64,000 bases of DNA from Nemertoderma westbladi. Its lineage: Eukaryota > Animalia > Xenacoelomorpha. Below, piece by piece: positions 2,372 through 22,995 of the stretch (position 1 is its first letter; each line of letters opens with the position of its first letter). Made by a program: the position numbers and the translations under genes. The stretch covers positions 1 through 64,000 of the forward strand of contig JAUCBJ010002579.1 in the NCBI GenBank assembly GCA_032718475.1. The letters are read 5' to 3'. Under the pieces are notes generated by a model, which did no database searches, was not told the DNA's origin, and worked only from the letters and a program-made list of their open reading frames with translations.

Positions 2372-2590
2372 TATATATATATATATATCGGTTATATTGT
2401 ATATCGTGTATCTGTATGTATATACTGTATATTGTGTATCGGTTATGTTATATTTATCTTGTAATATACATTATACATACAGATACACGATATACAATAT
2501 AACCGATATATATATATATTGGTTATATTGTATATCGTGTATCTGTATGTATATATATTGTGTATCTGTTATGTTATATTTATCTTGTCA
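2355..2590. repeat. TA-rich low-complexity repeat with duplicated ~50-bp units
   Basis: (TA)n runs and a repeated GGTTATATTGTATATCGTGTATCTGTATGTATAT block replace the C-terminal half of the transposase. Confidence 0.75.
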
Positions 2591-3460
2591 AATATCGAGA
2601 ACTGTATGACATACTAAATATGTCAATTATATGCACTGTCATGACATACCAGGTATGCCATGTCTTAACATACCTGGTATGTCATTACGCAATCACAGAA
2701 TGCCCTATGACGTTTTTTTGGGTCTCCCACATCTCTAGATGCATGAAACCGAAATACTGAAGCAATTTAAAGAGGGTTGTAAGCATTTCAAATCGGCTCA
2801 AACTTCCCAGTGCTTTCGCAGGACACTTTTATTCTGCTACAGGACGGAAAGGGTTAATAAAACATACCGGTACTGTAACTAACCAAAAATAAAATTTGTA
2901 AGCTTTTTTAAAAATTTTTCTAGACCAAAAAATATTTGTTCTTTAGAACATTTTTTTTTTCAAATGTATCTCATGTTCTAGAAAATTTCCTAAAAGTAAA
3001 TACCCAAAACTAGCGAGTAAAAAAAATTTGAGGGGGGGTGTAACACACTTGTACCGTTGGTGGTACTACTGTAGCTAGCCATACATACAATAATTCAGAA
3101 GATTTTAACTTTTTATTCTAGAAAACCCAACATTGTTGTATTTCCGTCGCAACACTTTAGGTTTTTAGTTAGTTTTTATAATTAAAAGATGTTAGCACTG
3201 TAGGCCCTCTACATGACCTACCTGAATAACCCTTTACCGGTATTTAATAAAACTTTACATACAGTAGCTAGTCCATTATAAGTTATTGCACAAAAAAAAT
3301 ATGGCTAGAGTTCCGTTTATATTAACATTTTCAGTAAATGTTTTTGATGCATTGTACACATTTTTTATTGATAATTATTTATTTGAATGAATACTTTATC
3401 TTGGCAGGCCTAGCTAGTGAATTTAATGATAGCTACTGTAACATACAAGTCATACCTGAT

Positions 3461-3887
3461 CAGTGGCATATTTAGAAAACTGACGGGGGGGGGGGGGGGG
3501 GGGGGGGCATGAAAATCTATTTGATTAATATATTTAATATATTAGCCACAATTAATATATTAATTAAAATTACGATACATTATTTATTCAAGTTTATAAG
3601 ATATAATATTATTATTATTATACATTATTATTATCGCTCTGCTTGAACGGCACCGCTAATGACCATTCTTTGTACTACTGTATACTGTTTTGTGTAGCTT
3701 GTACAAACAATGGGACTTCCTAGTAATCTCAACAGCCTAAATAAAGGATGTGGTTGATATTGCCCTGGCTTTGGATTCCCGGCCTGCCCCACCTGTGCCG
3801 TGGCTGCGCCCATGTTGTGAGGAGGGGGGGGGGGGGGGGGGGGCATGACTCAATTCCCCCCCCCCCCCCCCCCTAAATCCGCCACTG
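3461..3887. mobile_element. hAT-like MITE
   Basis: Termini CAGTGGC...GCCACTG with subterminal poly-G/poly-C. The 8-bp flanks TACCTGAT (3453-3460) and CACCTGAT (3888-3895) match at 7 of 8 positions. Confidence 0.75.
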
Positions 3888-4762
3888 CACCTGATACAGC
3901 AATAATTACCGGTACAATAAATAATTTTGCAACACTTAAAAAAGGCGGCCGCTTTTAACATTCTAACGAATTTAGTATCAGGGTCATGACCATGTTCATT
4001 AATGCAAATTTTATTGTTAAAATTTTCATTATCTACCGCTCAGTCAATGGTCTAGCGGTAAATAAGATTTTCATTATTTACCTATAGAGATAAATGAGGA
4101 TTAATTGCTCTAATCAGTCAACTTTGTGCAGTAATAAATACTATTCTGGAGCATTGCATTTACGTATTTAATGAGTTGATTAATATTTATTAATAATCTT
4201 CAAATAAATAATATGTTCCAGAATATTGTGTATTTATTAAATATAATAATTGGCCTGCCTGCAGGCTGTAACGGATGCAAATACCTGCACTATCTCAGCT
4301 TTTTCTCAAATATATTTCAGCAATATCGCAGCTATTTCTCAACGACATTAATAGTTATTTACAAATTTGGAATCCTTGCAACAACACCTTTCCATTGGTT
4401 GGTATCTACAAATCACAAGGAAGGACGAAGAATAATTGCAGAGCGACAGGTACAATTTTAATTTCTTATTAAACAATAATATCTTTTAAAAATTATAATA
4501 ATAAAGATGATTTTAACAATAAAATTACATATTGTACGAGAAATAATACTATATTTACCTTTTCGCCCCTCGCTGATTTATTTATACAGATCTATTATAC
4601 AGTACAAATCTCGGGACGAACGGTAAATAAAGAATATTTTATTTACTGTACAATAAATAAAGGGTAGTTATTATTTAAATAAATTCTTTAATGTATTATA
4701 TGTAATTTATCTTTGGTTGTTACTCAAAGCCGCGAAGGATTAAACACGATTCACGGACATAA

Positions 4763-5207
4763 TTACTTTGGGGACCGTCCCCTTGAAACACTTTTATACA
4801 CACCGCTTATTTTATGAAACACTTTTTACAATTTTTTTTATAAACATTTTTTTTTCATAAAAAAGTAGCCTATCACACGTCATAAACCAATTGAGGGGAA
4901 GGAGCAGGTTACAGGGGCCGGGTTTTCTATCCAAAACAATAAACGGCTACTGTACTTTACCAATTGAGGGAAAGGAGCAGGTTACAGTGGCGGGATTTTC
5001 TTACCAAAACAATAAACGATCGCTTTACCAATTGAGGGAAACCATAGGGCCTATGGTCAGACAGCCAGTTAGTCACTCTATAAGTCACACTATAACCAAA
5101 AAAATCAGGCAGGCAAGCAATACGTACCAGTACGCAGCTGTAGAATGATAATTCAGCAATTACTGTAGAAACGGTTTCAAGGGACGGTCTAACGGTCCCC
5201 AAAGTAA
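4763..5207. mobile_element. Small TIR element carrying ~65-bp internal tandem units
   Basis: Inverted ends TTACTTTGGGGACCGTCCCCTTGAAAC and GTTTCAAGGGACGGT..ACGGTCCCCAAAGTAA. The internal unit CCAATTGAGGGAAAGGAGCAGGTTACAG...CCAAAACAATAAACG recurs at about 23030-23140, 23490, 29335-29540 and 29770. Confidence 0.6.
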
Positions 5208-5577
5208 CAATCCCCCGATTCACAGACTGACAGATACACTTCGCTGCTTCGCCACTTCGCTACTTCGCTCCTTCGGCGGTGACAGGGCGCAGGGCGGTGG
5301 TTTTGTGTCAAATTTTGACAGACAGACAGAGATAAAGTTTCACCGCGTTTTCACAGCGCTGTACTGCTGTACTGCTGTACAGCTGTATACAGTAGGTACC
5401 TGTCAGCCTGTATTACCAGATTACGTTGTACCGTAGGGTACCTGTAATTCTGTAATTGGCTGCTTGGTACTGATTTTGGATTTTGGGCTTAACCCCAGAA
5501 CCAAAACGCTCTGAATTCTGAATCTCTGATTGACAAGCCCAGCATTGCAATCTCAGAGCGCTGTCACTGCGTCGCGT

Positions 5578-7834
5578 CCAGGCTACAAACCACCACTGAA
5601 CCGCGCACAACGCCTGCGCACAATTTCTCACCCACGCAATATTGGACAATATACCGCGCATGCACCGAAAAACACGCGCACACCTCATTTTAACAAAAAA
5701 AAAAACGAAAAACTAACGCGAGCGAAGCGAGCCAAATGTTTTCATTAACAATGCAAAATGTAAAAGATACGCGAGCAAAACTTAAAGTGAGCGAAATTTA
5801 GACATTTGAGAAATCTGACAATGCAAAATATGAAAATGCAAAGAAACGCGAGCGAAGCGAGCGAAATTTTTTGTGGCAAATTATTTTTCTTACTTTGCAT
5901 GGATGAACAGCCATTCCAAGCAAAAGTAAACCTTTTGGTAAAAAATGAAAGTACTTAGAAATGCATTTATTTTGTATTGAGTGTGTAGCACACATATTGT
6001 GCTTCATAAAACTGTTTTCAAATATTCCATAATCCTCGCCAATTTTTTTTTACAGCCTCCTCAAAATGTGATTTAAAAAATGCCAAAAATTCAACATTTT
6101 TGGCATTTATTACATACAAACTAAAATGGCATGATCATTACCAAACTGACAATGTCATATGTTTTTCAGAATCTTATATCTATGTAGTATTTAGCCATGT
6201 CGGTTAAATAATGTACAACTAATAAATATTTTTCTAATAGCATTGTAATGAGTGGATGGAAAATATGTCACGACCGTTACGCTGAAGAACAAGTTTTTCC
6301 ATTATCTCCAGATCCCCGGCAGTAATGGTTATAATCTTTTATATCTATCGTTAGGTGGTTCGTATCAATTGTTTGAGTCATATGGTTTAACTTGACTATA
6401 TGTTCCAGTTGTAGTAATCAGCGTAACGGTCGTGACATTAACATGTGGGAAATGGGAATATTAGCATAGCATGTATAATTCAAGGAACGAAAGGTCGTCT
6501 TTTTTACTCTCCATTATTTAGATTACATTTTGGAATATGATTCCACACAAAGTGATAATTGTAATATTGGGTGTACAAAGGTTTCTTCTTAACCTATAAT
6601 GTGCCATAACAGCACTTATGAGTATGACTGTAACGGTTGTGACACAAACCTTAGGAATCATTATTATACAGTATAAATTAATTTGTATCATTTATGATAC
6701 CACTGCTGCAGTGGGATGTAATTATAATTGTACTGTAATCAGGTAGTACACATACTGACATAATAACCAAAACATCAGTACAATACTTCATAGAACAGTA
6801 GAACGTATGTATGCTTTGCAATAAGCACCATTCCTACAATTCTACTTGTTTCAACTAATTTTAAAAATGCTGGTTACTTGCACTTTTCATTTTAGCACCA
6901 AAAATGGTAGGTCAGTAGGTGCGTTCAACTGCGGAATTTAAAAAGCCTTCCATTGAAATCGGCGTACCAGAAAACCGATATGTAATTGAAATAAATACCA
7001 TTCCTAGAATTCTTATTGTTTTCACTAATTTGAAAAAAGCTGGTTACTTGCATTTTTCATTTTAGCACCAAAAATGGTAGATGTGTTCAATTGCGGAATG
7101 TAAAAAGCCTTCCATTAAAATCAGCGTACAAGAAAACCTGCCTGAAATCGATATCAATACCTAACTCTAATACCTTACCATTTTTTGAAATTCAGATTTA
7201 TGTGAAAATCGATAATGTCACAACCGTTACGAAACTATGTCACGACCGTTACGCTGGTTAATTGATTGCCACATTCTCTAATGATACTATATTGCCATAC
7301 TGTTAATTTTATTTTAAACTCTATCTATTAGCATGATAGTCTGACATAAGTAACGCTAAATAAATACAGTAAATTCGATAGAAATTTATAATGTGTAGGA
7401 GTCTCTAAAAAGCTTGTCCATTTCAGTCACGACCGTTACGCCAACTTTAAACTGGAATACAATCAATAAAACGTAATGTATTCCAGTGCGGTTTCGATTT
7501 TATTAAAGGTCCATATCTTAGGATCATATCATAGTAATATCTTTTCAATATCATTCTTCCATGTGCCCTTAAAATACTCATTAATACCGGAAACCCATGC
7601 GGAATGTCACGACCGTTACGCTGGAATGGCTGTGAAAAACTTTTTTACACCTCATCCGCCTGTCCCAGTGTCCGCGCACTTTGACTTTTGATATTTTGCA
7701 CAGATTACTGCGCACTTTTATTGTCTTTCACATAATTTCGCGCACTTTTATTTCAATTCCGCGCGCTTTTACCGCGCACTATTTCAAATACGCGCACAAC
7801 GCGTTGCGATTTTTGCACTTCATTTGCAGCCTGG
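5578..7834. mobile_element. Non-autonomous DNA transposon with CCAGG termini and 8-bp TSD (superfamily unassigned)
   Basis: Ends CCAGGCTACAAA / TTTGCAGCCTGG. Flanks CGTCGCGT (5570-5577) and CGTCGCAT (7835-7842). Subterminal CGCGCAC repeats and GCGAGCGAAGCGAGC motifs. Confidence 0.7.
5908..7632. mobile_element. Nested non-autonomous element with 4-bp TGAA TSD
   Basis: TGAA|CAGCCATTCCA ... TGGAATGGCTG|TGAA. About seven copies of GTCACGACCGTTACG occur in both orientations, plus an internal ~170-bp tandem duplication (6830-7140). Confidence 0.7.
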
Positions 7835-7942
7835 CGTCGCATAGCTGCATAGTGTATCTGTGAACCGGCAGACCGGGCTTTACTGTATTATCAATTAGGC
7901 ATACTTTCCGTTAACCGTCTGACCGTTGACCATTTCATATAA

Positions 7943-8539
7943 ATGTCTGTCCTCGATTTCGCGAGCGCTCCGAACTTACCAAAATCAGTTCCGATCATCA
8001 ACCGCTTCGAACCATCGAGACTAAATAAACTAATTCAGCGAGTTTGTCAGGCCGTGTCGGAACGTAAGGACCACGTCTTTACAGCAGACGAGACAAGTAA
8101 ACTCGGCGCAGCTCTGGAACTGAGTGAAGACGAGGTTAGAATACTACTGGCCTCGCTGCGTTACATTATAGAGCGGTCTGCCTTCCACATAGTAAAACCA
8201 AAAACTCTATGCGAAGAACTCAGTAAGTTGGGATTGGACGAAGACAAAGTTGTGGTTATATCAGAAGCTTGGAAAGATTCCGCTAAAGGCATAGTAGAAG
8301 TTCTGCGGAAAGAAACTTCGGTTCCTAAAGTCCTCGAATCTGTCAATTCTTCGCTTTCGGTTACCGCAGCCCAGAGCTGCGCTCAACAGGCCAACGAACC
8401 GCGAGCGCTTATCGAACTCGGAATAAAAGATAATCTCGGCGAAACTGATAAACTTCTACTCGAGTTTAACACGGATGAGTTGTACTCGTTCTATGCGAAA
8501 CTCGAGATTATACAGAGCCAGTTGGACGGGTTACAGTGA
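7943..8539 (+). CDS. COMMD10: COMM domain-containing protein 10 (CCC/Commander complex subunit), 198 aa, intronless ORF
   Basis: Colinear over its full length with vertebrate COMMD10 as recalled: F..E..KL.AAL.L, YIIERSAFHIVKP..L.EEL..LGLDEDK..AW, and the C-terminal COMM domain KLLLEFNTDELYSFYAKLEIIQSQLDGL. Confidence 0.93.
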   Translation: MSVLDFASAPNLPKSVPIINRFEPSRLNKLIQRVCQAVSERKDHVFTADETSKLGAALELSEDEVRILLASLRYIIERSAFHIVKPKTLCEELSKLGLDEDKVVVISEAWKDSAKGIVEVLRKETSVPKVLESVNSSLSVTAAQSCAQQANEPRALIELGIKDNLGETDKLLLEFNTDELYSFYAKLEIIQSQLDGLQ

Positions 8540-8547
8540 AGCGCGAA

Positions 8548-9279
8548 ATGGAGGTGAAGAAATATGAGAGTGTTCTAGAACGCTGTGGAGTTTCGGGGTT
8601 ACTAGAAGGCGGGTTTAACTCGGTGCTTCACAACCATCCGGACGACCCGATTGGTTACCTAGCAACCTACTTCGATACGGTGGCGAGGCCGCGTGCCGAC
8701 CCACTCGCCAACGCCGTCGCTCTACTCAACTCCACCTCGATTCGCGATATGCCGTCGTTCGAATTGAACCTACACGAGTGTTTCAGAGAGTTAACTCATC
8801 AGCCAATCAACGGGTCGCATCAATCCTCTCAACCAATCAGCTCGTTGGGTTTACCCGGGCTTCTCTTCGCCTCCTTACTGCGGCGTCTACTAGCCGATGT
8901 GGCTTCCGTATTCTCCGGGAAACTTCTGCGGTCTCTGAACCTCCGGGATTGGCAACCAGTCTCCTATATGTTGTTCCGGCACGGGGTTGTATCGAGTTTA
9001 CTGTTGGTCGAGTACGTGGATCGTTGCCGGGAGATACACACGGGGGTTAGCGGAGCTGAAGGCGGTGCTAGTAGGGGCGTTCTAGAACGGATTATTAACG
9101 AGTTCGCTATTGCCGTGTCGTACCGAGGGTCTCTCGCCGAGCTGCATTCGATGCAATCCTTAGATCGCCACCGGATTGGGTCTCTGATGTCCGCCGGTGT
9201 CGAGGAAACCTCACCCAATATGGACTTTGTTGAATTTACTTCCAGATTAATTGACGTTTTGCTTAATAAGAATAAATGA
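8548..9279 (+). CDS. TPGS1: Tubulin polyglutamylase complex subunit 1 (PGs1), 243 aa from the ATG, intronless ORF
   Basis: N-terminal RIIa/Dpy-30-like docking motif LERCGVSGLL..VLHNHPDDPIGYLATYF, then GLPGLLFASLLRRL, VSYMLFRHGVVSSLLLVEYV and a C-terminal MDFVEF, matching TPGS1 blocks in order. ATG 8548 is preferred over the GTG at 8536. Confidence 0.85.
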   Translation: MEVKKYESVLERCGVSGLLEGGFNSVLHNHPDDPIGYLATYFDTVARPRADPLANAVALLNSTSIRDMPSFELNLHECFRELTHQPINGSHQSSQPISSLGLPGLLFASLLRRLLADVASVFSGKLLRSLNLRDWQPVSYMLFRHGVVSSLLLVEYVDRCREIHTGVSGAEGGASRGVLERIINEFAIAVSYRGSLAELHSMQSLDRHRIGSLMSAGVEETSPNMDFVEFTSRLIDVLLNKNK

Positions 9280-10111
9280 TTCCATTCCTACCGCTCTATA
9301 TACTAAACAGTGCGGAAAATAATCGGTTTTCACTAAATCTTAACAGGAAAATAACTAAAATATTACCTTTCCACTAAATATATTAAGCATCACTAAAAAA
9401 TCTATATTTTATAACAAAATAAGGGAAATGAGCGGAGAAGGTTATAGTGGCACGTTAATCTAATCAAAACAATAAAGAAACGAGAACAAATTCAATAGAA
9501 CAGATTAGTACTGTGATTTTTATGATAAAAAAATATTTTAGTGATAATTAATATATGTTAGTGGAGGAATATATGTATTTTGTTGAAACAAAATAGAGAA
9601 ACAACATTTAATTTAGTGGAAAAATAAATTGTTTCGGTCGCCACAAGACATACTAAAGCTTAACAAATAGTGGCCAATAAAATTAATGAGTTTTTTATTA
9701 TTATGTGCGAATGCGATATTTCAATTTAATTGATTCAATAGATTATTTTGCTTACTTTTTTGTATTTTTAATTATATGATTATTACAATAATAATTAATT
9801 ACACAATTATAAGATAATATAATATTATGAATCCATTCCTTGGCCCAAAAAAACAGTAATAATTAGTTTGGGAATACTTTGGTCTGCTTTTAATATTACG
9901 ATGTGGTACTAATGTGGGTAAATTGTACTCATTTACATAGGGAACCCAGATAGTTGCAGACTTTCGCCGCAATCGAAATTATTTCCATCTCCAGGGGGGG
10001 GGGGGGGGGGGGGGGGAATCGACGCAAATAACAGCGGTTTACTCTTAGAAATAAAACTGTATAAAACTGATTTCCAGTGCAGTCCCCCCAGAACTTTGCT
10101 CTCCAGAGTAA

Positions 10112-10284
10112 ACTCCAGTACTCATTTATCTACCACTTGAGGATGCAAGGCAGAGATGCGCCCTGGCTGGTCCCTTCAAAGCATTCGTGCCGAAACGAAT
10201 AATACTACCCTGGCGCATGCGAGGATCGAACCCACGACCTCCAAGAGATGTGAATTCAATGCGACCACTACGACCACGCCAAGG
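10112..10284 (-). mobile_element. tRNA-derived SINE, copy 1
   Basis: The minus strand shows an A-box-like TGGTCGTAGTGG and a B-box GGTTCGATCC, followed by a non-tRNA body (TCTCTGCCTTGCATCC...AAATGAGTACTGG). A second copy lies at about 30164-30330. Confidence 0.75.
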
Positions 10285-11617
10285 TGGGGCCACCAAGATG
10301 GGATTTGCGTTAAGCCCCCCCCCCCCCCCCCCCCCGTGTCACAGATTTTTTACTATTTTTTTTATTTCCTCTGGATTGAAGTTGAAGCCGTGAAAAATTA
10401 ATCTTCTCAAACACACGAATAAATAAAATAATAGTGGATAAACCCAATACCACCGGTACTTTACCAGAAAAATAATGTCCAACCATGACCTACTATAGAT
10501 ACGACCCGCCAAGCTGCTGCAAAGCCCCTTAATTTAGTGGGCCAGTTATTTCTCTTAGATAGAACCCCTGAAACAATCGGTCTAGTGTGTCGATGTCGAA
10601 TGTACTTGTCCCTAAGACCCTAACTAAAATTATGTCATACAAATTTAAAGAGCTGCCGTTCAATGTGAAAAGACCACACCACAAGTCACAAAAAGTCATT
10701 TCGAGTAAAACGCAAATTACTGTTTGCCATCATATTGTTGGTATAAAATGTCCGTAAATTACTAGTTTTTTTTTATAACGCTACGCAATTTTACTACCTG
10801 ACTATTTTTCACTTTCCATTAATATTTTTACATCAGGATTATTTTTTGTAGTTTTGTGTTTTTGCCTTGTACTGTACAACCTGTATGTAATTACATTCGA
10901 TACAATGCAAAAACAAATGTCACAATGACAAAACAACGCAAGTCTATCAGTTGCGGTGTTTTTGCATTGTGTAAATTTAATGCACTCATTAAAGCAGGGG
11001 GGGGGGGGGGGTGCAACACCCCCCCTGTGTTTTTTTAAATTTGTAAATAACTTGGAAGAGGTTGCATAAACAAAAAAAACTTGGGAACGGGGAAATATTA
11101 TGAAATAGAAAAAAACTGCCCGAAATTTATCGAAGCTTAAGAAATTACCAATCCATATGGAGCGAAAATAATAAAAAACGGGTTAAGAATTGGCAGAGTA
11201 GTGTTCGTTTGCGTGAAAAATTATCTTTTCAAGAAAATTGTCTTCAAAGTTTAAATCTTCCCGCTCAAAACTGTCCGTATGGGGTCTGGTTGGTTAATAA
11301 GTCTGGCATGAAGGAAGTCCACCACAGAGCTATACTTTTCGTTATGGCGGTTTACGAAGTCCGTGATTTAATTTCCCTGCCTATTGGTCTGGCTCTGGCT
11401 GTCTGTCTAAACTTACATTTTGACGGTCTGACCGGTAGACATGGAGAGACAGTGATAACTCGAAAACTAAATGCGATCTCGCTTAGAGCACTTAAAGAAG
11501 GAATTATCATACTAAACAGTTAGGGTAGAGTTGGTTCACCTCATGTGACTAATGGAATTATTAACAACCTGTTAAATTACTTAAGCTTTCTCCCATCAGG
11601 GTTTCTTCAGGTAATTA

Positions 11618-13438
11618 ATGAAAATGGATACAAACAGATCTCGCCAATACATGTTCAGGGTAGCATTCATACATTATGATAAAACTACGCAAGACAAAAA
11701 TTTCAATAAAACCGTATGTACGTTTTCTTATGGGCACCTGGACAGTATCCTTCTTATTCCCAAGATCATGGATGGTCTGTCAACTATGCGGGAGAATCTA
11801 CGGACACTGGAGAAAAAGGTGGACGTTACACACAGAGTACATCTAAGGCGCATAGTGGATAACGAGAGGCAGTGGGGACGCCGGAACCTTATCGTAATGA
11901 ACATTAAAGAATCACGTAACGAGGATTTAAAGCAGGTTGCTCATAACTTTTTGAGAAAAGATCTCGGGATCACGGAGCGACTAGGTGTTGATCGTGTTTC
12001 GAGGCAAGGTATGTTCAAGCGCGGTTCCACCCGGCCTATAAAAATTGAATTTACAAATATGACTGACAAATATACAGCATTGGACGCCAAGGAGCAACTA
12101 ATTGGCTCAGAGTATCGAATGGTGGATGATTACCCCCCTGAACTGAGATCACAGAGAGCAATTCTTTTCCGCTTATCCAGAGAAGCTAAAGAGATGGGGC
12201 TTATTGCACGAGTATCAGGTAACGTTTTGAAACTGACTAATTTTTCAGTTAGTGGTTGGGACATAATCGATTCTCCTAATATTAATATCAGGACACTGCT
12301 CGACAGGCACTCCCCTGGACGAGCACGGGAGCCATCCCATCCCGATAGGAATCTATACAGGTCGCATGAGCAGGTTTCGAGAGGTCTGGACATCCATCCT
12401 AATACAAGATTTCGATACCAGGTAAACCTGCCAACCAGTGGGGGTGAACAACTGGGAAGCAATGAGGTTGAGGAATATGATAGGAGACGAGCGGATGAGA
12501 GAAATCCGTGGGAGACAGAACGGCGGCAGGAAGAGTGGAAGCGTGGAGAGGAAGAGCGACGGCGGGCGGAGGGACGGAAGCGTGGAGAGGAAGAACGATG
12601 GCGGGCGGAGGAACGGAAGCGTGAAGAGGAAGAGCGACGGTGGGCGGAGGAACAGAAGCGTGGAGAGGAAGAGCGACGGCGGGCGGAGGAACGGAAGCGA
12701 GGAGAGGAAAAGCGAGGGCGGGCGGAGGAACTGAAGCGTAGAGAGGAAGAGCGACGGCGGGCAGAGGAACGGAAGCGTGGAGAGGAGGAGCGACGGCGGG
12801 CAGAGGAACGGAAGCGTGGAGAGGAGGAGCGACGGTGGGCGGAGGGACGGAAGCGTGGAGAGGAAGAACGATGGCGGGCGGAGGAACGGAAGCGTGAAGA
12901 GGAAGAGCGACGGTGGGCGGAGGAACGGAAGCGTAGAGAGGAAGAGCGACGGCGGGCGGAGGAACGGAAGCGTAGAGAGGAAGAGCGACGGCGGGCGGAG
13001 GAACTGAAGCGTAGAGAGGAAGAGCGACGGCGGGCAGAGGAACGGAAGCGTGGAGAGGAGGAGCGACGGCGGGCAGAGGAACGGAAGCGTGGAGAGGAGG
13101 AGCGACGGTGGGCGGAAGAACAGAAGCGTGGAGAGGAAGAGCGACGGCGGGCGGAGGAACGGAAGCATGGAGAGGAAGAGCGACGGCGGGTGGAGGGGCC
13201 ACAATTGGGTTGCCCAGATGCAGCTCAGGCCTCGCCTATTGGTTCTGAGCTGCAGTCAGCCCCAAATCGGGAAGGTATGGCTGAGTTGGTATCAGACCGA
13301 GTGGGGGTTGACTCTGTGGATCCTCAGCACACCCCGGTAATAATTATACAGCGGGGTACAGGCGGAGATGATCAGACTTGGCGAATCCGGGAAAGTGCGG
13401 GGGATTTCCAGCCCGAACAGGAAACTCAAACAGGCTGA
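11618..13438 (+). CDS. LINE ORF1 protein (L1-ORF1p-like RRM/CTD) with an E/R/K-rich repeat tail
   Basis: RRNLIVMNIKE..EDL, RVSRQG..RPIKIEF and DDYPPELRSQRAIL are typical ORF1p motifs. The true start codon is uncertain. Confidence 0.8.
   Translation: MKMDTNRSRQYMFRVAFIHYDKTTQDKNFNKTVCTFSYGHLDSILLIPKIMDGLSTMRENLRTLEKKVDVTHRVHLRRIVDNERQWGRRNLIVMNIKESRNEDLKQVAHNFLRKDLGITERLGVDRVSRQGMFKRGSTRPIKIEFTNMTDKYTALDAKEQLIGSEYRMVDDYPPELRSQRAILFRLSREAKEMGLIARVSGNVLKLTNFSVSGWDIIDSPNINIRTLLDRHSPGRAREPSHPDRNLYRSHEQVSRGLDIHPNTRFRYQVNLPTSGGEQLGSNEVEEYDRRRADERNPWETERRQEEWKRGEEERRRAEGRKRGEEERWRAEERKREEEERRWAEEQKRGEEERRRAEERKRGEEKRGRAEELKRREEERRRAEERKRGEEERRRAEERKRGEEERRWAEGRKRGEEERWRAEERKREEEERRWAEERKRREEERRRAEERKRREEERRRAEELKRREEERRRAEERKRGEEERRRAEERKRGEEERRWAEEQKRGEEERRRAEERKHGEEERRRVEGPQLGCPDAAQASPIGSELQSAPNREGMAELVSDRVGVDSVDPQHTPVIIIQRGTGGDDQTWRIRESAGDFQPEQETQTG
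12539..13197 (+). repeat. Coding tandem repeat, 39-bp unit, 17 copies (consensus KRGEEERRRAEER)
   Basis: Counted from the ORF1 translation. No frame-breaking indels. Confidence 0.93.
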
Positions 13439-13485
13439 ACCCAGAACTAAAAGTTGAGCCGCCAAAAGCAGGGACTGATAAAAAT

Positions 13486-16400
13486 ATGCTGAAGGTTGGC
13501 TTGCTAAACATAGAAGGTATAAATACGGCGATTGCCGATCCCTACTTCTGTCAAACAATTAAAAAACATAACATTTTCGTTTGTGTGGAAACTTGGCAGG
13601 CCCCAAACAATCCTCGTGATATTGGCATTGGGGGATATAAGGATTTTAGTGTTTGTAGGAAATATAAACATAGATATGCTAAAAGATACAGTGGGGGTGT
13701 AACTGTTTATATATCTGAAGCGCTCGGTAATGAAGTTGTGATTCTGAATAACGTGACAAGTGAAGATTTATTATGGCTTAAATTTGTAGGTAAACCGAAC
13801 TCAAGAATACATAAGGATTTAATTATCTGTGCTGCGTATATTCCACCTCATAATTCTCCTAGCTATTTTAATGATTCTGGTTGTTTGTTTGATAAAATTC
13901 TAGAAGGTGTTTCTTTATACCAGAATGTTGATACTACTGATTTTTTAATAGTTGGAGATTTAAATGCAAGAACTGGTGTGCTATTAGATTATGTCTGTCA
14001 TGATTCTTTGTTTACTGGTTTTAATGATTTATTACCCGATGAATACGTTTTTGATGATAATGATTGGCCAAATGATACTAAGATCCGTTCCAATAGGGAT
14101 TCGATTACTAACAGACATGGTGAGAAATTGATTTCTCTCTGTCGGTCTAGCAACTTAAAGATATTAAATGGTCGTGTGGGAGCGGATAAGGGTGTGGGTA
14201 ACTTTACATATTATAGTGACGGAGGGAGGCATGGGGTTCGTAAGTCTACAATAGATTACTTTTTGGGTAATATTTCAATGATCACGGCCTGCAAATATTT
14301 TAGTATAGGCGACCCCAACAGTTTATCGCCTCATTGTACCGTATCAGCCGCTTTCAACATTAGTGGCAGTGAATATTTCTGTTGCAGTGAATCTTATGAT
14401 AATAGAACCAATGTTACTGCTGGTAAGTTAGCCAATAGCCGAAAATACAAATTTCTGCAAACAAAAAGTGGGGACTTTAGAGATGCATTAAACTCAGAAG
14501 CAACACAGCTGGAATTTGACAAGGTGTTGGACAATGTCTTATGTATGGAACCGCTTACCTGCAGTAAGGTTGATGCTGCCGTAACGGGGTTTACCGATAT
14601 TTTAAGTAATGTAGCCGATATTTATTTTAAAGTTGATAATAATGGTGTTTACCGTGCCTGTAATAATGCCCCTTGGTTTAATGAAAACTGTGCGGTAGCT
14701 AGAGATGCCTTTAGGCAGGCACTGGGAAGCTTTAAGAATAAGGGTGATGCAACGTCGAACGCTGCTATGGTGAAAATGAGGACCCAATACAGGAAGGTAC
14801 TTCGTAAAGCTCGTTTTGACTTTAATTGTGGGAGGTCGGACAAGTTGCGGAAATTTAAAATTGTAGACTCAAAAAAATTCTGGAAACTATTAAGGCAGAG
14901 TTGCCATGGTTCAAGTAGCCCACAGCAATCTCCAATAAGTGCGGAGGTATTTGCGTCCCATTTTAGGGCGCTGAATGAGGAAGGATCGAACTTTGAGGAT
15001 ATGGACGTTGTTGGGCTGCCTCCTAATAATAATAATAATGACTTTGCTTTAGCCAAACATATTTTTGAAAATTATATCTGTACGCCTTTGGAGGAGGAGG
15101 AGGTTGCCACGACTATCAATAGGTTACGTAGTAATAAAACACCGGGTTTTGATGGTATTTTAAACGAATTTTTCATAGTGGGGGCGGAAACTTTAGTCCC
15201 AGTTGTTACGAGCATATTTAATGCAGCCCTCCATTGTGGTTATTTCCCAGACAGTTGGACTACTGGTATAATCACACCCATCTACAAAAATAAAGGTACA
15301 AGGTTAGACTCTAACAACTATAGAGGTATAACTTTGTTAAGTGCATTTGGTAAATTATTTACGCTTATATTAAACGGACGACTCCAATGGTGGGCTGAGG
15401 GGTTTGCGATAATAATTGAAGCTCAAGCTGGGTTTCGAGGTGGTCGTTCTACAGTAGATCAGATTTTTATTTTGAAAACAATTATTGATAATTTTATAGG
15501 TAAACGTGTTAAGATTTATTGTGCATTTATTGACCTAAGAAAAGCGTTTGATTGTGTAGATAGAAGTGCTTTATGGGTAAAATTAACGAGGCTTGGTTTT
15601 TCAGGAAAAGTCTTTAATGTAATAAAAAGTATGTACAGTGCAGTTAAATCACGAGTACGTGTAGATGGGGAACTTTCTGGTGAGTTTATATGTTGGTTGG
15701 GCGTGAGGCAGGGCGAATGTCTTAGTCCATTGTTATTTAATCTATTTTTAAATGATTTAGAATCTGAATTGGCTGCAAATGGTATTCAAGGTATCTCAAT
15801 TGGCACATTTAAACTTTTAATGTTGTTGTATGCCGATGACATTGTGCTGATGGCAAACTCAGTTAATGATTTACAACATGCATTTGATATATTGGGTAGT
15901 TATTGTGATTATTGGTCTCTTACGGTTAACCTTGACAAATCTAACGTTGTTGTATTTAGGAAAGGGGGACAAGTGGCCTCCCATGAAAAATGGAAATATA
16001 AGGGTCATAATGTTAAAGTGGTGTGCGAATATATGTATCTGGGAGTATTATTTACTTGTGGGGGCAGCTTTGCCTGCGCTCAGAAAAATCTGGCTAACAA
16101 AGGGGAAAAAGCTAATTTTTCGTTAACAAAGTATTTGGCTAATTTTCCCACCACGGATTTCATTACGGCTTGTGATTTGTTTAATGCATTAGTTAAGCCA
16201 ATTTTGACATATGGTTGCGAAGTTTGGGGTTTTTGTTCATCAGTTGATACAGAACGTGTCTTATTAAAATTCCTAAAGAACCGCCTTGGAGTGAAGGTAA
16301 CAACCCCAAACTTCATGGTTTACGGTGAATCTGGCATTTTTCCGCTAGAAATTGAAAGATACTGTAGGATTATAAAGTATTGGTTAAAGTTACTAAGGTG

Positions 16401-17047
16401 CAATGACACTAGATTAGTTAAACAGGCCTATATTTTGCAATTGAACGAACTAAATACTGGTAGAACAGGGGATGGTGGAAATTGGGCTATCTCGGTGCGT
16501 AATTTACTAAATAATCTGGGATTTACTTGGGCGTGGGAAAGACCCGGGGACATAATTAAATGAGAGGAAATTCATTCTAAATGTTCGTGAACGATTATAT
16601 GCACAGTTCGTACAGGGTTGGTGGGGTGCCATCGAGCGGTCGCCGAAGGGTATGCTCTATAGCAAAAGGGATTTCAGTTTGGAGAATAACCTATCTATGT
16701 TGAGAGGTCACGCAGGTCTTAGTAGGTTGATTTCCAGGTTCAGGTGTTCGTCACATGCACTTCTGATCGAGAGCGGCCGGTGGTATAAAATACCCAGGGA
16801 ATCGAGAATATGCCCGGTTTGTAATAAAAATGATATAGAGGATGAATATCATTTTTTGTTGGTGTGTGATGGTTATCGAGATCTGCGCATGAAGTACTTC
16901 TCTGGGCGCTACAATGTGAATCCTACTATATTGAAATACCATGAGCTAATGGGGGCAACTACCAGGGAAAAACTACTAAAGTTAGGTCGTTACCTTAACG
17001 AGGCTTTTCGCGTTAGGGAGAACATTATGCAATGTCGTTCCATATAA
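13486..17047 (+). pseudogene. LINE ORF2 (APE endonuclease + reverse transcriptase + C-terminal zinc motif) with one frameshift near 16560
   Basis: APE motifs NIEG, VETW, VGDLNAR, STIDY. RT motifs NYRGITLL, QAGFR, FIDLRKAFD, GVRQGECLSPLLF, YADD. One extra base at ATTAAA-TGAGAGG shifts the frame into NERKFILNVRERL...SSHALLIESGRW...CPVC..IEDEYHFLLVC..Y. Confidence 0.92.
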
Positions 17048-17960: not shown

Positions 17961-20900
17961 TTATTTGTATCGATTAATGAGTTTTCGAAGTTTCTCCAAT
18001 CTGTTCTGCAGCTCTTTATCAATACCGGACCCTCGAGAAATCTGTAAGTCGCCGACAGTCGCCTCAAACCCAGGCGAAACCCGGTCCATTAGCGCTGAGT
18101 TCAATTCGGCCAAAGTATTGAGAGTCTCAAAAAATCGAGGTTGGCTGCCTCTAATGTTCTTGGATATAAAGTTATTTACAATAGGGACAAATACTTTGTT
18201 ATCAACATCTAAAGTTAATAGAATTTTCAGTAGCTCCAGGGATGACTGCTTTGCGATGCAGTTATCCATTAGCTGACAACGGAGTAAAAGCGGCATTGTG
18301 GTTTCAATAATTTTTAATTTTATTCCGGACTGAATTGTAACATCCATAACTAAAGTTTTGTAAAACATCACTGCCGCGCGAAACTTCGAAGAAGCTGTTG
18401 GGTTTTCTGACATCATTATACAATCTTTAATGAGGTCTACAAGGCAATCGGCAAATAGCAATTCTTTGGTGATTTCCGTTTCAGAGATCGACTTAAAACA
18501 GGTGTAGAAAGGATGCGAGTCTATGGCAGAGTTGCCGGTTATGAACTGAAGGAAATATATTGAAACAGAATCGTTTAGTTTCCTACATATATAGGGATCT
18601 CTTGTGTAATCCAGGTATGCCAGTCCCAGCATAAAGTGATTGAAATACTTTCTGACACAAAGTGCATGTATGTAGTACGGGGTTGGACTTCTTTCTGTTG
18701 CGTGGGATTTATGGAAGAGCAATACATCAAAGAATGTTGAAAATATCTTGTTTGATTTGGCTTGAGCATAAAGAACTCTTGATGCAAAGTGGCAAAGGTG
18801 TGAGGAAACGATAAAGATTGATTCAATCTGATCATTAGATAGGTTGCTTCGATTTGTAAAAGATTTCTCGATATAATCAAAGGTGTCACTGAATTGGATT
18901 AAAGTTCTAGAACGTAATGCTCCTCTATCATATAGAGTTTCGCAATCATTATATGCGGTTTGTATATTTCTTATAAACCTTAACAATAAGGATTGTGCTG
19001 TTTGTGACCTTTCGTTAGCAATGAGACCGATGTCACAAACAATTCGAGTTAATTCCTTCAAATGAACGTTGCTTTCATTGACAAATACAGCACATTGAAT
19101 CCAAGTGCGAAGCAGTATCTGTCCGTATTCAACCCGACCCACTAGTTGGATTAGTTTATCCTCTATGGAATGGCTGCATGATAAGTTGGCCAGGTATTGG
19201 CACGCAGAAATATGATCAACGGAAGAGCAACTCGAGAAGTAGGTGAAGGATTTATGGAATTCCGATCCTGGTGATTCAGCTGCAGACGACTCTGCGAGAA
19301 TAAAGGTTAAACTACAAACTAATTTCAGTGAAACTTCCTGCGGAGTAGCACTGCGACAATGATGTCTGCAAAATGGCAATAAAATCGTTGATAAATGCGA
19401 TATAATTGATGAAGAACGAGATGATGATTTGGAAGTTAATCGATAGTTATCCAATATTTTGCTGAAATGGGGTATTATTTGTTGAACTTCGGCGGAGTTG
19501 AGATTTAATAAGATATCCTTTATGGTGCAGGGAAGGAGTGACACCAAAGTTGATGTGGAATCATCCAGAGGAGTTGGTGAAAATATAAATTGTTTCAGAA
19601 GCTCCAGATAATTAGTAAACATTAAGGCTGCTTGTGATCGTTGGAGAGGGTCGCAAAGTTTACTATTGAAATATCTTGTTACACTCCGTTCTAAAACAGC
19701 AGAAATTCGCGCTATGAACACGGTCTGCATGGGGGTATTGGGTACAACTTTTAACCAGAGGAAGTTAATAATCAGTAAGATGTTGTCATTCCTAGAAGCT
19801 GATCTGTTTGAATAAATACATTCCGATAAATCTAGGTATTTCTCAGAGACTTCAGTGATATCAGTTAATAAAGCCAATGCAATAAATAATGAAGTAAAGT
19901 TCCTTACACCATGTGCCGAAAGTTCCAGAATTTTACGAGGGGAAAAATTCAAATAAAATCTACTTTTAATCCTCTTCCAATTGTTTTGGTTATCTTTCAA
20001 TAAATTAGACAACAATTTTAAGAAGTAATGAAAACTGGTAGAATCATTTCTTCTGCTCACAAAATTTGAAGTATCACCTTTATCTGCAACAAATGATTGA
20101 ATTAATTGAAACCAAGATTCAGGAGACTCAGAAAAATTCAAACAATCAACCGTTGAATCGACTCTAAATGATTCATTGATATATTTGCTAAAATACAGCC
20201 ATAAATGAAGAATTATATTGATATTACAACCCCAAAGTGCAGTCAGTTCCATCAAATATTTACAGTAATCAATCGCATCGCAATTTGACAACATTTTACC
20301 ATCACATACAAATGTTTGTTTAACTAAAACTAAAATAATATCCCAGTCTTTCCAGCTTGGTAGATTTGAAGCCACCTCCGCTTTGGAAAAAACTGTAGAG
20401 AAAGTTGATGCTAACATCCATACAGTTTTTATTTTATGCAAATCACTATGTTTTTCAATATTATACAAGTGGTAGTGGAATGGTGTTATCTCTTCTGAAA
20501 TATCGCTGTTCAATACATAAAGCAAAGCATTCGATAGTAATTCATTAAACTTAAGTGAATTTCCGATAAAACTATTTATCATGACTTGCAGCAATTGTAA
20601 AAGACCCTTGTAACATTGGCAGTGAAATTTGTGTGGTGAGTGTAGTCGGTGATTATCACGTGTTCTAGAGACTATATCCTCCCCAATAGTAATCTGTACA
20701 ATCCAATCGGAAATTATGAAATATATAAGGTTACAAAGCAGAGGGTTGGTGTTATTAGATTTACCGTCAAGATCAAAAGGACTGCCAATGATGTCATCAG
20801 TTAATAAAGCCTTATCCACAAAATTATCATGACTATAATTCTCTAATAAATAAATAATTAACAACGTGTAATAGTATATATTAATATAGAGATGGAATAA

Positions 20901-21656
20901 TGCATTACTTGGATTCTCTTCAGGGTTAGTTAAATTCCACTGTTTTGCGACATTCGACAGTCTTCCAATCTGACAAGTTAGTCCACAGAGTTCGGAAAAT
21001 ATTGATAATCGAAGATCGTGTGTTGTGAATGCATTGAAAGATATAATATTTAGAGCTTGGCTTTTAGGATGTTTCAATATACATTCATGTTGAGACTTTA
21101 CAGACACAAAAACGAATGCCAAAAAAGATGATATTTGCTCGCAAATAACAAGGGACTGTTTCAAGTTGCACTCATTAATGCTAATATTTGAAACAGGCAT
21201 GTTGGAAAGTCGGCGTAATTCGTTCAATTTTATTTTAAGCAGATTGAACAATGTTGAGTTAGCTGTTTCCAATGATCCAAATTTATAGCCAAAAAATTGA
21301 TTCCGATTCAAAAGCGACATTGATGAGTTGACTGAAAACCATGCATTTACATTTCCAGCTCCAGTGATGGCGTTTAAATTATCAATAAAATCAGCATATT
21401 GTTCTTCTGATGAACGCAAAAGATGACAGTAATAGAAAACAGGACCATCTAGAGAATTAACAGGAATTTCTGTCTTGTCACAACACTCGTTTGTAGCAAC
21501 TCTCTCGCGAAGTTCATCATTCAATGTGGGTAGCAAAAAGGGTGAAACAATTGTTGGTTGAATTGAGTTTACAGTAAATGTGGGACTTTTACAGACATAG
21601 TCATCGATATCTGGCGATGATGGGGGTGTAAATGAATTCTCAATGAAGTTATCCAT
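17961..21656 (-). CDS. MMS22L: MMS22-like DNA repair protein (TONSL partner), 1231 aa, single uninterrupted ORF
   Basis: N-terminal S.TPP.SP. Central WKRIKSRFYLNFSPRKILELSAHGVRNFTSLFIALA resembles vertebrate WKQVKGRIYSKF..LTEVGLQNFFSLFLLLA. Also DPYICRKL and a C-terminal E/Q..RG.G motif. Length is close to vertebrate MMS22L. Confidence 0.88.
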   Translation of the reverse strand: MDNFIENSFTPPSSPDIDDYVCKSPTFTVNSIQPTIVSPFLLPTLNDELRERVATNECCDKTEIPVNSLDGPVFYYCHLLRSSEEQYADFIDNLNAITGAGNVNAWFSVNSSMSLLNRNQFFGYKFGSLETANSTLFNLLKIKLNELRRLSNMPVSNISINECNLKQSLVICEQISSFLAFVFVSVKSQHECILKHPKSQALNIISFNAFTTHDLRLSIFSELCGLTCQIGRLSNVAKQWNLTNPEENPSNALFHLYINIYYYTLLIIYLLENYSHDNFVDKALLTDDIIGSPFDLDGKSNNTNPLLCNLIYFIISDWIVQITIGEDIVSRTRDNHRLHSPHKFHCQCYKGLLQLLQVMINSFIGNSLKFNELLSNALLYVLNSDISEEITPFHYHLYNIEKHSDLHKIKTVWMLASTFSTVFSKAEVASNLPSWKDWDIILVLVKQTFVCDGKMLSNCDAIDYCKYLMELTALWGCNINIILHLWLYFSKYINESFRVDSTVDCLNFSESPESWFQLIQSFVADKGDTSNFVSRRNDSTSFHYFLKLLSNLLKDNQNNWKRIKSRFYLNFSPRKILELSAHGVRNFTSLFIALALLTDITEVSEKYLDLSECIYSNRSASRNDNILLIINFLWLKVVPNTPMQTVFIARISAVLERSVTRYFNSKLCDPLQRSQAALMFTNYLELLKQFIFSPTPLDDSTSTLVSLLPCTIKDILLNLNSAEVQQIIPHFSKILDNYRLTSKSSSRSSSIISHLSTILLPFCRHHCRSATPQEVSLKLVCSLTFILAESSAAESPGSEFHKSFTYFSSCSSVDHISACQYLANLSCSHSIEDKLIQLVGRVEYGQILLRTWIQCAVFVNESNVHLKELTRIVCDIGLIANERSQTAQSLLLRFIRNIQTAYNDCETLYDRGALRSRTLIQFSDTFDYIEKSFTNRSNLSNDQIESIFIVSSHLCHFASRVLYAQAKSNKIFSTFFDVLLFHKSHATERSPTPYYIHALCVRKYFNHFMLGLAYLDYTRDPYICRKLNDSVSIYFLQFITGNSAIDSHPFYTCFKSISETEITKELLFADCLVDLIKDCIMMSENPTASSKFRAAVMFYKTLVMDVTIQSGIKLKIIETTMPLLLRCQLMDNCIAKQSSLELLKILLTLDVDNKVFVPIVNNFISKNIRGSQPRFFETLNTLAELNSALMDRVSPGFEATVGDLQISRGSGIDKELQNRLEKLRKLINRYK

Positions 21657-22995
21657 CTGTTACTCGAGGAAGTAATATAAACTAGGTACCGTATGTTAAA
21701 CCGGTAGTGTAACAAAATAATGCTGTAATGGAATAACATAAATATATCACCTACCTACCGCTTCCAGTATCCTATTGGAGGCCTATTTACCTCAATGTCC
21801 TGGGATATAGTGTGATTATTCAGGTAACTGCCCCCGAAAAATAAATGTTTCTACAAATTTTAATGAGACTGCATAAAATTTGTAATAATAGAGATAGTTT
21901 CATCTCCCTCCTCCACGCTGGGTAGCCACAATTTAAATTTTTAGCTCTGACTCTTTAGCTATAAGCTATCTTTAGCTATATGATTAAGGTATATTCCTCC
22001 AGTTACGCCGCAGTTATTATTCAACCTTCATGATTTCTTGGTACCTGACGGGAAGGTGGCCATGCAAGGATTCCAAATATGATACAATCTGGATTTTGTT
22101 GAGAACACATTTGTTTATAATTATGTATGAATAGCGACATAATATTATGATTAAAGAGATACACATTGTTGCCAGGCACTGCACCACTGCAGGTAGTGCT
22201 GCAGTGTTGAACGAACAGGTACCTGAATAAAGATACTATAGTCCACGATATGGTGTAGGAAGTAGGAGTAACAGGTGTTAGGCTTATGTATCAGGTCTAA
22301 GTTTAAGTGGTATTTACACTATACAGCTATGACCAGACTTCCTGGTCCCAGGCTGCCAGGGTGTATTTTAACCCCCTCCAGTGAAAACTCACCCCTGCTC
22401 CTACATTTGTCCATTTTCACTCTCTGCAAATCCACCCCCAGATAAAATTCCCGTGTATTCCAGTATTCTCATTTACAGTGCATCTGCATGTAAAAATAGA
22501 TAGCTAGATTGATAGATACACGGTAGAATTCAGCACGTTAGTAAAATGTAGTAATTGTAGACACTGTATGGCCCTTCGCGCAGCACGTGAGTAGCGAAAT
22601 AGAAATAAATATACAGTATTCGCCCTTCACGCAGTATGAAACAGAAACATACACATACAGCCTGACAGTAGTAAATGACGGATGTGACTTCGATCACCAT
22701 GAAAATTACGTAATAAATAGGTAGGCCTAGAGGGAGAGCCATTGTCAGATTGTAAAACCCGTTGATCAGCACGTGAGTAATATGTCTGTATGTAGGCCTA
22801 GTATAGTAAATATAGAAAGAGACACTGTTGGGCCCTTCTGCCTTTCACGGTGCAGGCGCAGCACATTTGTTACATTAACTATATATACAGTGTTGGGCCC
22901 TTGGCGCAGCATGTTAGTTAGACGTGGGTGTCGGAGTGTTTTTCTTGCCGAAGTGATAATCTAACATGTTTCAAAACACAATGACACGACACACG

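What the first reader, a model, noticed from the sequence alone, without database searches (positions are those of the whole stretch)
7943..9279. COMMD10-TPGS1: two conserved genes 8 nt apart, with a leaky-scanning signature
Seen: the COMMD10 stop (TGA 8537-8539) is followed by AGCGCGAA and the TPGS1 ATG (8548) in a different frame, leaving no room for a 3' UTR, poly(A) site or promoter. The COMMD10 ATG context is weak (T at -3, T at +4) and the TPGS1 context is strong (G at -3, G at +4). COMMD10 has no internal Met. Only three out-of-frame ATGs (8209, 8475, 8493) occur in ~600 nt, all with a pyrimidine at -3 and non-G at +4. Known: this pattern marks dicistronic mRNAs translated by leaky scanning, as described in green algae. 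Alternatives are termination-reinitiation, SL trans-splicing at TTACAG (8531-8536), or a TPGS1 promoter inside COMMD10. The pairing of a Commander subunit with a tubulin polyglutamylase subunit is not one I recognise.
Basis: partly seen in the sequence, partly recalled or inferred. Interest (0 to 1): 0.8.

Follow-up and report, generated by a model that had tools for sequence, protein, structure and literature searches.

The report
COMMD10 and TPGS1 share one message
In an animal genome, intact genes for an endosome-recycling subunit (COMMD10) and a tubulin-modifying subunit (TPGS1) lie 8 bases apart and likely share one spliced messenger RNA, from which the second protein is likely made by ribosomes slipping past the first, weak start; such two-gene messages are known, but this one pairs two proteins reported as neighbours in human cells.

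Summary
Coordinates, contexts and both gene identities are confirmed. One run, X4, behaves as cDNA (adapter end, depth inverse to DNA runs). Its 5' pieces map 2.6-2.8 kb upstream on the same strand and join an acceptor 44 nt before the COMMD10 ATG, so they are cis leaders, not a spliced leader. One unbroken contig crosses the 8-nt gap. No leader, adapter or joint is listed at TTACAG or anywhere in 7899-9345, and the first canonical poly(A) signal after COMMD10 overlaps the TPGS1 stop. A two-gene mRNA is therefore likely, but this rests on contigs of one run. The leaky-scanning signature is weaker than claimed: out-of-frame ATGs are not depleted (3 against 3.8), and two open a frame that overlaps the TPGS1 start. 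Translation was not tested. Verdict: new member of a known kind (Drosophila, green algae). The scan has noted similar pairs in other genomes, not this pair. The added interest is a human proximity-labelling link between COMMD10 and TPGS1 (PMC11189303). Conservation of the gene order could not be tested.

The parts
5089..5112 (+). Upstream 5' piece 1, followed by a GC-type donor; likely first exon
   Evidence: With 5150-5179 it reproduces exactly the mixed consensus of 2 X4 contigs joined at 7897; the only such partner on either strand of the window
5150..5181 (+). Upstream 5' piece 2; no GT or GC donor at its end in the window allele
5310..5331 (+). Upstream 5' piece 3, directly behind adapter letters; joined at 7895, no canonical donor
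   Evidence: exact match of a 19-letter pattern, 0.02 expected by chance; 22 letters by comparison
5113..7898 (+). Likely 5' UTR intron (longest form), repeat-rich, ending in a T-rich acceptor
   Evidence: X4 depth is 0 over 6334-6834 where DNA runs have cover; joins at 7895-7897; pyrimidine share 0.59
7849..7898 (+). Unspliced 5' end form: adapter letters directly before 7849
   Evidence: loose end and contig 7849-7924, depth 102
7899..7942 (+). Common 5' UTR part, 44 nt, no ATG, in-frame TAA directly before the start codon
7943..8539 (+). COMMD10, 198 aa, one coding exon, weak start context, no internal Met
8209..8226 (+). Five-codon internal ORF in the TPGS1 frame, closed 321 nt before the TPGS1 start
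8475..8567 (+). 30-codon frame (second ATG at 8493) that overlaps the TPGS1 start; would compete with it
8540..8547 (+). 8-nt spacer between stop and start
   Evidence: bridged by X4 contig 7899-8583 with no differences
8548..9279 (+). TPGS1, 243 aa, one coding exon, strong start context, full-length and undisrupted
9271..9276 (+). First canonical poly(A) signal after the COMMD10 stop; overlaps the TPGS1 stop; use not shown

Best explanation
COMMD10 and TPGS1 are intact genes 8 bases apart that likely share one capped, spliced mRNA, and TPGS1 is likely made from it by leaky scanning past the weak COMMD10 start. Transcription likely starts 2.6-2.8 kb upstream (a minor form at 7849). A 5' UTR intron is likely removed to the acceptor at 7898, leaving a leader of 68-94 nt with no ATG. 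The message would end after the TPGS1 stop. Most ribosomes would make COMMD10. Those that skip its start meet no in-frame ATG and three weak out-of-frame ATGs, and a share would reach the strong TPGS1 start, giving less TPGS1 than COMMD10. Shown: sequence anatomy, gene identity, upstream pieces joined to 7895-7899 in contigs, a contig across the gap. Inferred: that X4 is cDNA, that single molecules span both genes (about 0.85), that TPGS1 is translated from them, and the scanning mechanism.
For: X4 behaves as cDNA: depth 2400-6400 on the genes where DNA runs have 9-26, and 0-25 over 6000-6834 where DNA runs have 330-1150; a loose end that I recognise from memory as a template-switch adapter. 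All 4 contigs with loose ends in 7840-9345 join at 7849-7897, none further down, and no joints are listed. The three non-adapter ends map to 5089-5331. A contig runs 7899-8583 unbroken, 36 nt into TPGS1. No AATAAA or ATTAAA lies between 8540 and 9270; of 10 variant hexamers only AAGAAA at 8557 does. The 8536 acceptor is poor (pyrimidines 0.36 against 0.59 at the used site). TPGS1 is full-length, keeps 21 of 32 highly conserved columns against 11 of 81 variable ones, and models at pLDDT 87. Weak first start, strong second start, short leader and no in-frame ATG match the features tied to leaky scanning in algae and flies (PMC11291117 passages; Wall et al. 2005, title and second-hand only).
Against: One run of one study, contigs only, not on record as RNA. 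The tool states that a contig across two genes shows no single transcript and that contigs drop rare variants. Out-of-frame ATGs are not depleted against synonymous shuffles (P=0.42), and low ATG density extends into TPGS1 (4 in 602 nt), so it may be local composition. The 8475/8493 frame overlaps the TPGS1 start; one added upstream ATG cut downstream expression by more than half in algae. A 198-codon first ORF is a long way to scan. In flies most dicistronic pairs do not meet the requirements of scanning, and only 45 of 159 are exclusively dicistronic (PMC4528330). The 8-nt gap is not needed for scanning and fits reinitiation. The start consensus of this organism was not measured. Two of three upstream joins lack a canonical donor. 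The contig ends at 8583 at a branch that the tables do not explain.
Confidence: 0.55

Rival explanations
1. COMMD10 mRNA carries TPGS1 as a passive 3' UTR, and TPGS1 protein comes from a separate, perhaps tissue-restricted mRNA, made by splicing the shared upstream exons to an acceptor near 8536 or by a promoter inside COMMD10.
For: Upstream first exons exist, and a CAG lies 11 nt before the TPGS1 ATG. In flies 130 genes share promoters and 5' non-coding exons, and 114 of 159 dicistronic loci also make monocistronic forms. Contigs cannot exclude minor forms.
Against: No loose end or joint at 8515-8553 and no adapter end inside COMMD10 in X4, although a branch of depth 8.8 survives near depth 3000. 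The four candidate acceptors have pyrimidine shares of 0.32-0.45 against 0.59 and 0.64 at the COMMD10 and MMS22L sites.
Confidence: 0.2
2. One shared mRNA, but TPGS1 is made by termination-reinitiation: ribosomes finishing COMMD10 restart 8 nt downstream, coupling the two proteins.
For: The 8-nt distance is within the 20 nt seen in viral reinitiation (PMC10275272 passages). It would bypass the overlapping 8475/8493 frame and explain why the gap is so short.
Against: The only TGGGA (motif recalled for calicivirus elements) lies 308 nt before the stop. Reinitiation after long cellular ORFs is poorly documented. It does not explain the weak first start or the lack of internal Met (P 0.007-0.08 for Met frequencies of 2.5-1.3%).
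Confidence: 0.15
3. An operon resolved by spliced-leader trans-splicing at TTACAG 8531-8536.
Against: No leader at 8535-8537; the leaders seen at the COMMD10 acceptor map in cis to window sequence not repeated in the window; splicing there would leave COMMD10 mRNA no room for its own 3' end; no Rfam family reaches its threshold in 4000-11500.
Confidence: 0.04
4. TPGS1 here is a recently silenced copy in the COMMD10 3' UTR, with the working gene elsewhere.
For: It is divergent: 126 bits against a homologue profile, above only 2 of 33 homologues, and lacks about 10 N-terminal residues. The rest of the genome could not be searched.
Against: No stop or frameshift in 243 codons; a neutral frame stays open in 9% of simulations at 10% divergence and 0.7% at 20%; conservation is graded by column; 4 other homologues are as short at the N terminus.
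Confidence: 0.04
5. A fusion protein by readthrough, frameshift or cis-splicing.
For: The two ORFs nearly touch.
Against: They are out of frame; readthrough meets a stop 5 codons later; no slippery heptamer in 8400-8547; no joint in X4; no longer homologue among 7989 candidates of 500-2000 aa (weak evidence; 427-499 aa not covered).
Confidence: 0.02

Closest known systems
Drosophila dicistronic genes, above all stoned A/B and Snapin (Wall et al. 2005, title and second-hand summary only; 159 pairs in FlyBase 6.04, PMC4528330 passages)
   Same: Two unrelated conserved genes on one processed mRNA; first ORF without in-frame AUG and with a poor start context.
   Different: Different gene pair; the terms Vlet, Tpgs and polyglutamyl do not occur in the 12 supplement files searched (genes listed only by CG number would be missed). 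No translation test exists here.
Green-algal bicistronic mRNAs read by leaky scanning (PMC7896298, PMC11291117; passages)
   Same: Weak ORF1 and strong ORF2 context, short leader (68-94 nt here; medians 83 and 54 nt there), ORFs out of frame, no spliced leader.
   Different: Animal genome; gap of 8 nt against medians of 260 and 212 nt; three upstream ATGs remain, two overlapping ORF2; no long-read, chromatin or proteomic proof.
Viral TURBS termination-reinitiation (calicivirus, influenza B; PMC10275272 passages)
   Same: Stop and start within 20 nt, out of frame.
   Different: No rRNA-pairing motif near the stop; cellular mRNA; strong ORF2 context, which TURBS does not need.
Human Commander and tubulin polyglutamylase complex proximity (PMC11189303 passages)
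   Same: COMMD10 and TPGS1 are named as BioID partners, on a proposed Commander surface of COMMD1/8/9/10 and DENND10.
   Different: Proximity in human cells, not shown as direct binding or as co-translation; TPGS1 also scored with six other subunits; the human genes are unlinked (recalled).

Membership tests
Dicistronic mRNA read by leaky scanning | One processed mRNA holds both complete ORFs | tested here: inconclusive
   Contig 7899-8583 bridges the gap and further contigs continue to 9382; contigs are not molecules
Dicistronic mRNA read by leaky scanning | 5' ends lie upstream of ORF1, none inside it | tested here: inconclusive
   4 of 4 loose-ended contigs join at 7849-7897; rare internal starts not excluded
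Dicistronic mRNA read by leaky scanning | No 3' end between the ORFs | tested here: met
   Sequence level: 8-nt gap, first canonical signal at 9271; the real cleavage site is not mapped
Dicistronic mRNA read by leaky scanning | Two separate intact ORFs, no fusion | tested here: met
Dicistronic mRNA read by leaky scanning | Weak ORF1 and strong ORF2 start context; no in-frame AUG in ORF1; short leader | tested here: met
   By the general -3/+4 rule; organism-specific consensus not measured
Dicistronic mRNA read by leaky scanning | AUGs under-represented before ORF2 | tested here: inconclusive
   P=0.007 base shuffle, 0.23 dinucleotide, 0.42 synonymous; TPGS1 is also low
Dicistronic mRNA read by leaky scanning | Both proteins are translated, and ORF2 output falls as ORF1 context is strengthened | not testable with these tools
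   needs ribosome profiling, proteomics or reporters
Spliced-leader-resolved operon | A non-genomic leader is joined at the downstream gene's acceptor | tested here: not met
   No loose end at 8535-8537 in one run's contigs; upstream leaders map in cis
TURBS termination-reinitiation | Stop and start within 20 nt | tested here: met
   8 nt (criterion)
TURBS termination-reinitiation | 18S-complementary element shortly upstream of the stop | tested here: not met
   Only TGGGA is 308 nt upstream; motif and usual distance are recalled
Genes sharing a promoter and 5' non-coding exon | The shared exon is spliced directly to the downstream gene | tested here: inconclusive
   Not seen in X4 contigs; minor isoforms not excluded

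The most novel reading that the evidence does not exclude
The two-gene message is a functional eukaryotic operon: it fixes the ratio of a Commander subunit to a tubulin-polyglutamylase subunit because the two complexes work together at microtubules, centrosomes or cilia. Gene linkage in an early-branching animal would then independently back the Commander-polyglutamylase link seen so far by human proximity labelling, and the short ORF at 8209 with the overlapping frame at 8475 could tune TPGS1 output as in ATF4-type leaders.
Probability: 0.15. Interest if true: 0.7.

Novelty: new member of a known kind. Interest (0 to 1): 0.42.

Why it matters
Two-protein mRNAs are catalogued in flies and green algae but little examined in other animals, and gene finders tend to drop or fuse the second gene. 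I found no paper on a COMMD10-TPGS1 message or, among listings, on such mRNAs in acoelomorph worms. If TPGS1 is read by scanning through a 198-codon ORF with three upstream ATGs, this is a demanding natural test of how far leaky scanning reaches. If the pairing proves conserved, it would be genetic support for a link between endosomal recycling and tubulin glutamylation.

Tried and rejected
No RNA holder is listed for this stretch; X4 was judged cDNA from its own behaviour. X6, X7 and X8 laid nothing, so no related species could be compared. X4 contig depths on the two ORFs (2754 against 2408-3297) are similar but are not counted, since contig depth cannot rank genes. No whole genome is held: no search for second copies, other gene pairs or the start consensus. 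Word-seeded protein searches found nothing for either protein or for longer TPGS1 forms. The locus search with the TPGS1 alignment could not run for lack of a conserved stretch, so synteny is untested. A COMMD10-TPGS1 complex prediction was not run because the queue was full: no verdict on binding. The TPGS1 model had no fold match at E<=0.001; its N terminus matches PKA regulatory D/D domains by profile. Rfam gave two sub-threshold hits. My first idea, a spliced leader at 7899, was rejected when the leaders mapped upstream in cis. All three internal Met of human COMMD10 are replaced here (read by eye), which is uninformative at this distance. PMC4528329 was opened by mistake and held nothing relevant. 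One supplement file of PMC4528330 could not be searched and may bear on whether fly orthologues are dicistronic.

Full report
Setting. The window is animal DNA rich in transposons: a LINE at 11618-16563, BEL/Pao elements at 33411-38753 and 53563-57876, and a one-exon MMS22L ORF at 17961-21656 on the minus strand. No whole genome is held. I did not test that and use it only as a lead.

Observation. ORF1 (7943-8539, 198 aa) is COMMD10: Pfam COMM_HN E 1.9e-15 and COMM_domain E 3.2e-10, human COMMD10 E 1.8e-30 against 1.7e-4 for the next paralogue. ORF2 (8548-9279, 243 aa) is TPGS1: Pfam TPGS1_C E 5.9e-15 and 43 hits among representatives. Of 7 hits looked up, 5 are named TPGS1-like and 2 carry uninformative names. 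A profile of 33 of the 43 hits covers residues 5-241 at E 7e-41. The protein is divergent (126 bits; homologues left out in turn score 96-301) but keeps 21 of 32 highly conserved columns against 11 of 81 variable ones; the homologues keep 62-94% of such columns. It models confidently (pLDDT 87). DNA runs X1, X2 and X3 each carry the pair on one single-copy contig, so it is not an assembly artefact; these runs may be the window's own source.

Transcript evidence. No holder is on record as RNA, but X4 behaves as cDNA. Its depth is 2400-6400 over the genes, where X1 and X3 have 9 and 26, and 0-25 over 6000-6834, where they have 330-1150. A loose end before 7849 is, by my recall, a template-switch adapter. 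In 7840-9345, 47 X4 contigs were laid; the loose-end table has three rows (4 contigs), all at 7849-7897, and no joints. I first took the non-adapter ends for a spliced leader. They are not: one matches 5310-5331 exactly, and the mixed consensus of the other two equals the letter-wise mix of 5150-5179 and 5089-5110, the only such partner on either strand. These stretches are not repeated in the window; copies elsewhere in the genome cannot be excluded. So three upstream pieces land on one T-rich acceptor at 7895-7898, 44 nt before the COMMD10 ATG. One join is GC-AG. The other two lack a GT or GC donor in this allele and remain unexplained: allele difference, unusual splicing, template switching or deletion alleles. 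Leaders come to 68, at least 76, and 94 nt with no ATG, and an in-frame TAA precedes the ATG. A contig with no differences runs from 7899 to 8583, across the gap and 36 nt into TPGS1; further contigs continue to 9382. Only 8 of the 47 X4 pieces are shown, and the branch at 8583 is not explained by the tables. The first canonical poly(A) signal after the COMMD10 stop is at 9271, on the TPGS1 stop. Together this makes it likely that COMMD10 mRNA holds the whole TPGS1 ORF. Limits: one run, one study, contigs only. Overlapping transcripts would give the same contig, and rare forms can be dropped, though a branch of depth 8.8 survived.

Mechanism. For scanning: T at -3 and T at +4 of ORF1, G at -3 and G at +4 of ORF2, no in-frame ATG, a short leader; these are the features tied to leaky scanning in algae (PMC11291117, passages) and in fly stoned and Snapin (Wall et al. 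2005, title and second-hand). Against a strong claim: out-of-frame ATGs are at expectation (3 against 3.8, P=0.42); the all-frame count is low against base shuffles (P=0.007) and below all 23 control windows, but not against dinucleotide shuffles (P=0.23), and TPGS1 itself has only 4; three weak contexts have P about 0.09. ATGs 8475 and 8493 open a frame across the TPGS1 start and would divert some ribosomes. Reinitiation fits the 8-nt gap (within 20 nt, PMC10275272 passages), but no TURBS-like motif is near the stop. A TPGS1-only mRNA by alternative splicing is the main rival; it was not seen, and the four candidate acceptors are pyrimidine-poor. Trans-splicing at TTACAG, fusion and pseudogene readings are each unlikely (see rivals). 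I put one shared mRNA at about 0.85 and the whole leaky-scanning model at 0.55.

Comparison with what is known. Flies have 159 dicistronic pairs, 45 exclusively so, and most do not meet scanning requirements (PMC4528330, passages). Green algae have hundreds (PMC7896298, listing and passages). This locus works like them; membership is not proven, since full-length molecules and translation were not tested. The pair itself was not found in print: COMMD10 with TPGS1 gave 3 papers, 2 listed, neither on gene order by title and abstract; TPGS1 with 'cistronic' gave 0; COMMD10 with 'cistronic' gave 7 listings, none on topic by title. Searches on acoel or Xenacoelomorpha with polycistronic terms showed no listing on this, and a nemertodermatid genome paper has no passage with operon, trans-splicing or polycistron (PMC10565955, passages). 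An acoel has spliced leaders on 30% of genes (PMC9911081, passages). Earlier scan notes describe similar pairs in other genomes, none with COMMD10.

Why the pair may not be arbitrary. In human cells, COMMD1, 2, 9, 10, VPS26C, VPS35L and DENND10 give BioID signals for TPGS1, and the authors propose a Commander surface facing the polyglutamylase complex (PMC11189303, passages). [quoted passage not shown] Binding and synteny both remain open.

Verdict. A real, well-described locus; likely a two-gene mRNA; new member of a known kind. Interest 0.42; novel reading probability 0.15, interest 0.7 if true.

Noticed in passing
window 17961-21700 (-): MMS22L is one 1231-codon ORF with a T-rich stretch and AG directly before its ATG, the same 'one coding exon behind a likely 5' UTR intron' layout as COMMD10. 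Retroposition or intron loss are possible origins.
   Followed up: partly
window 5181 and 5331: Two of three upstream 5' pieces are joined without a GT or GC donor in this allele; one join keeps four acceptor letters.
   Followed up: partly
window 8616: X4 has T>A at depth 695 of 3319 (Phe23 to Leu if alone); the same contig has a second difference that is not listed.
   Followed up: no
window 9312: G>A in runs X2, X3 and X4 against the window.
   Followed up: no
window 9382-9555: X4 shows a joint skipping 172 nt in the likely 3' UTR, in a stretch that is repeated in DNA runs; cover goes on to 9876 at lower depth.
   Followed up: no
window 8209-8226 and 8475-8567: A short ORF followed by a frame overlapping the TPGS1 start resembles an ATF4-type leader (resemblance recalled, untested).
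   Followed up: no
window 10008-10341: Very high-copy repeat (depth above 60,000 against 9 in X1), tRNA-like by eye on the minus strand, between G and C runs; likely a SINE.
   Followed up: no
window 11618-13438: LINE ORF1 with a long charged tandem repeat and no Pfam hit, followed 47 nt later by an endonuclease-RT ORF2.
   Followed up: no
window 49318-51883 (-): Two ORFs of 416 and 393 aa downstream of a BEL/Pao element have no Pfam hit; by eye one has CCHC-type knuckles and the other looks like a 3'-5' exonuclease.
   Followed up: no
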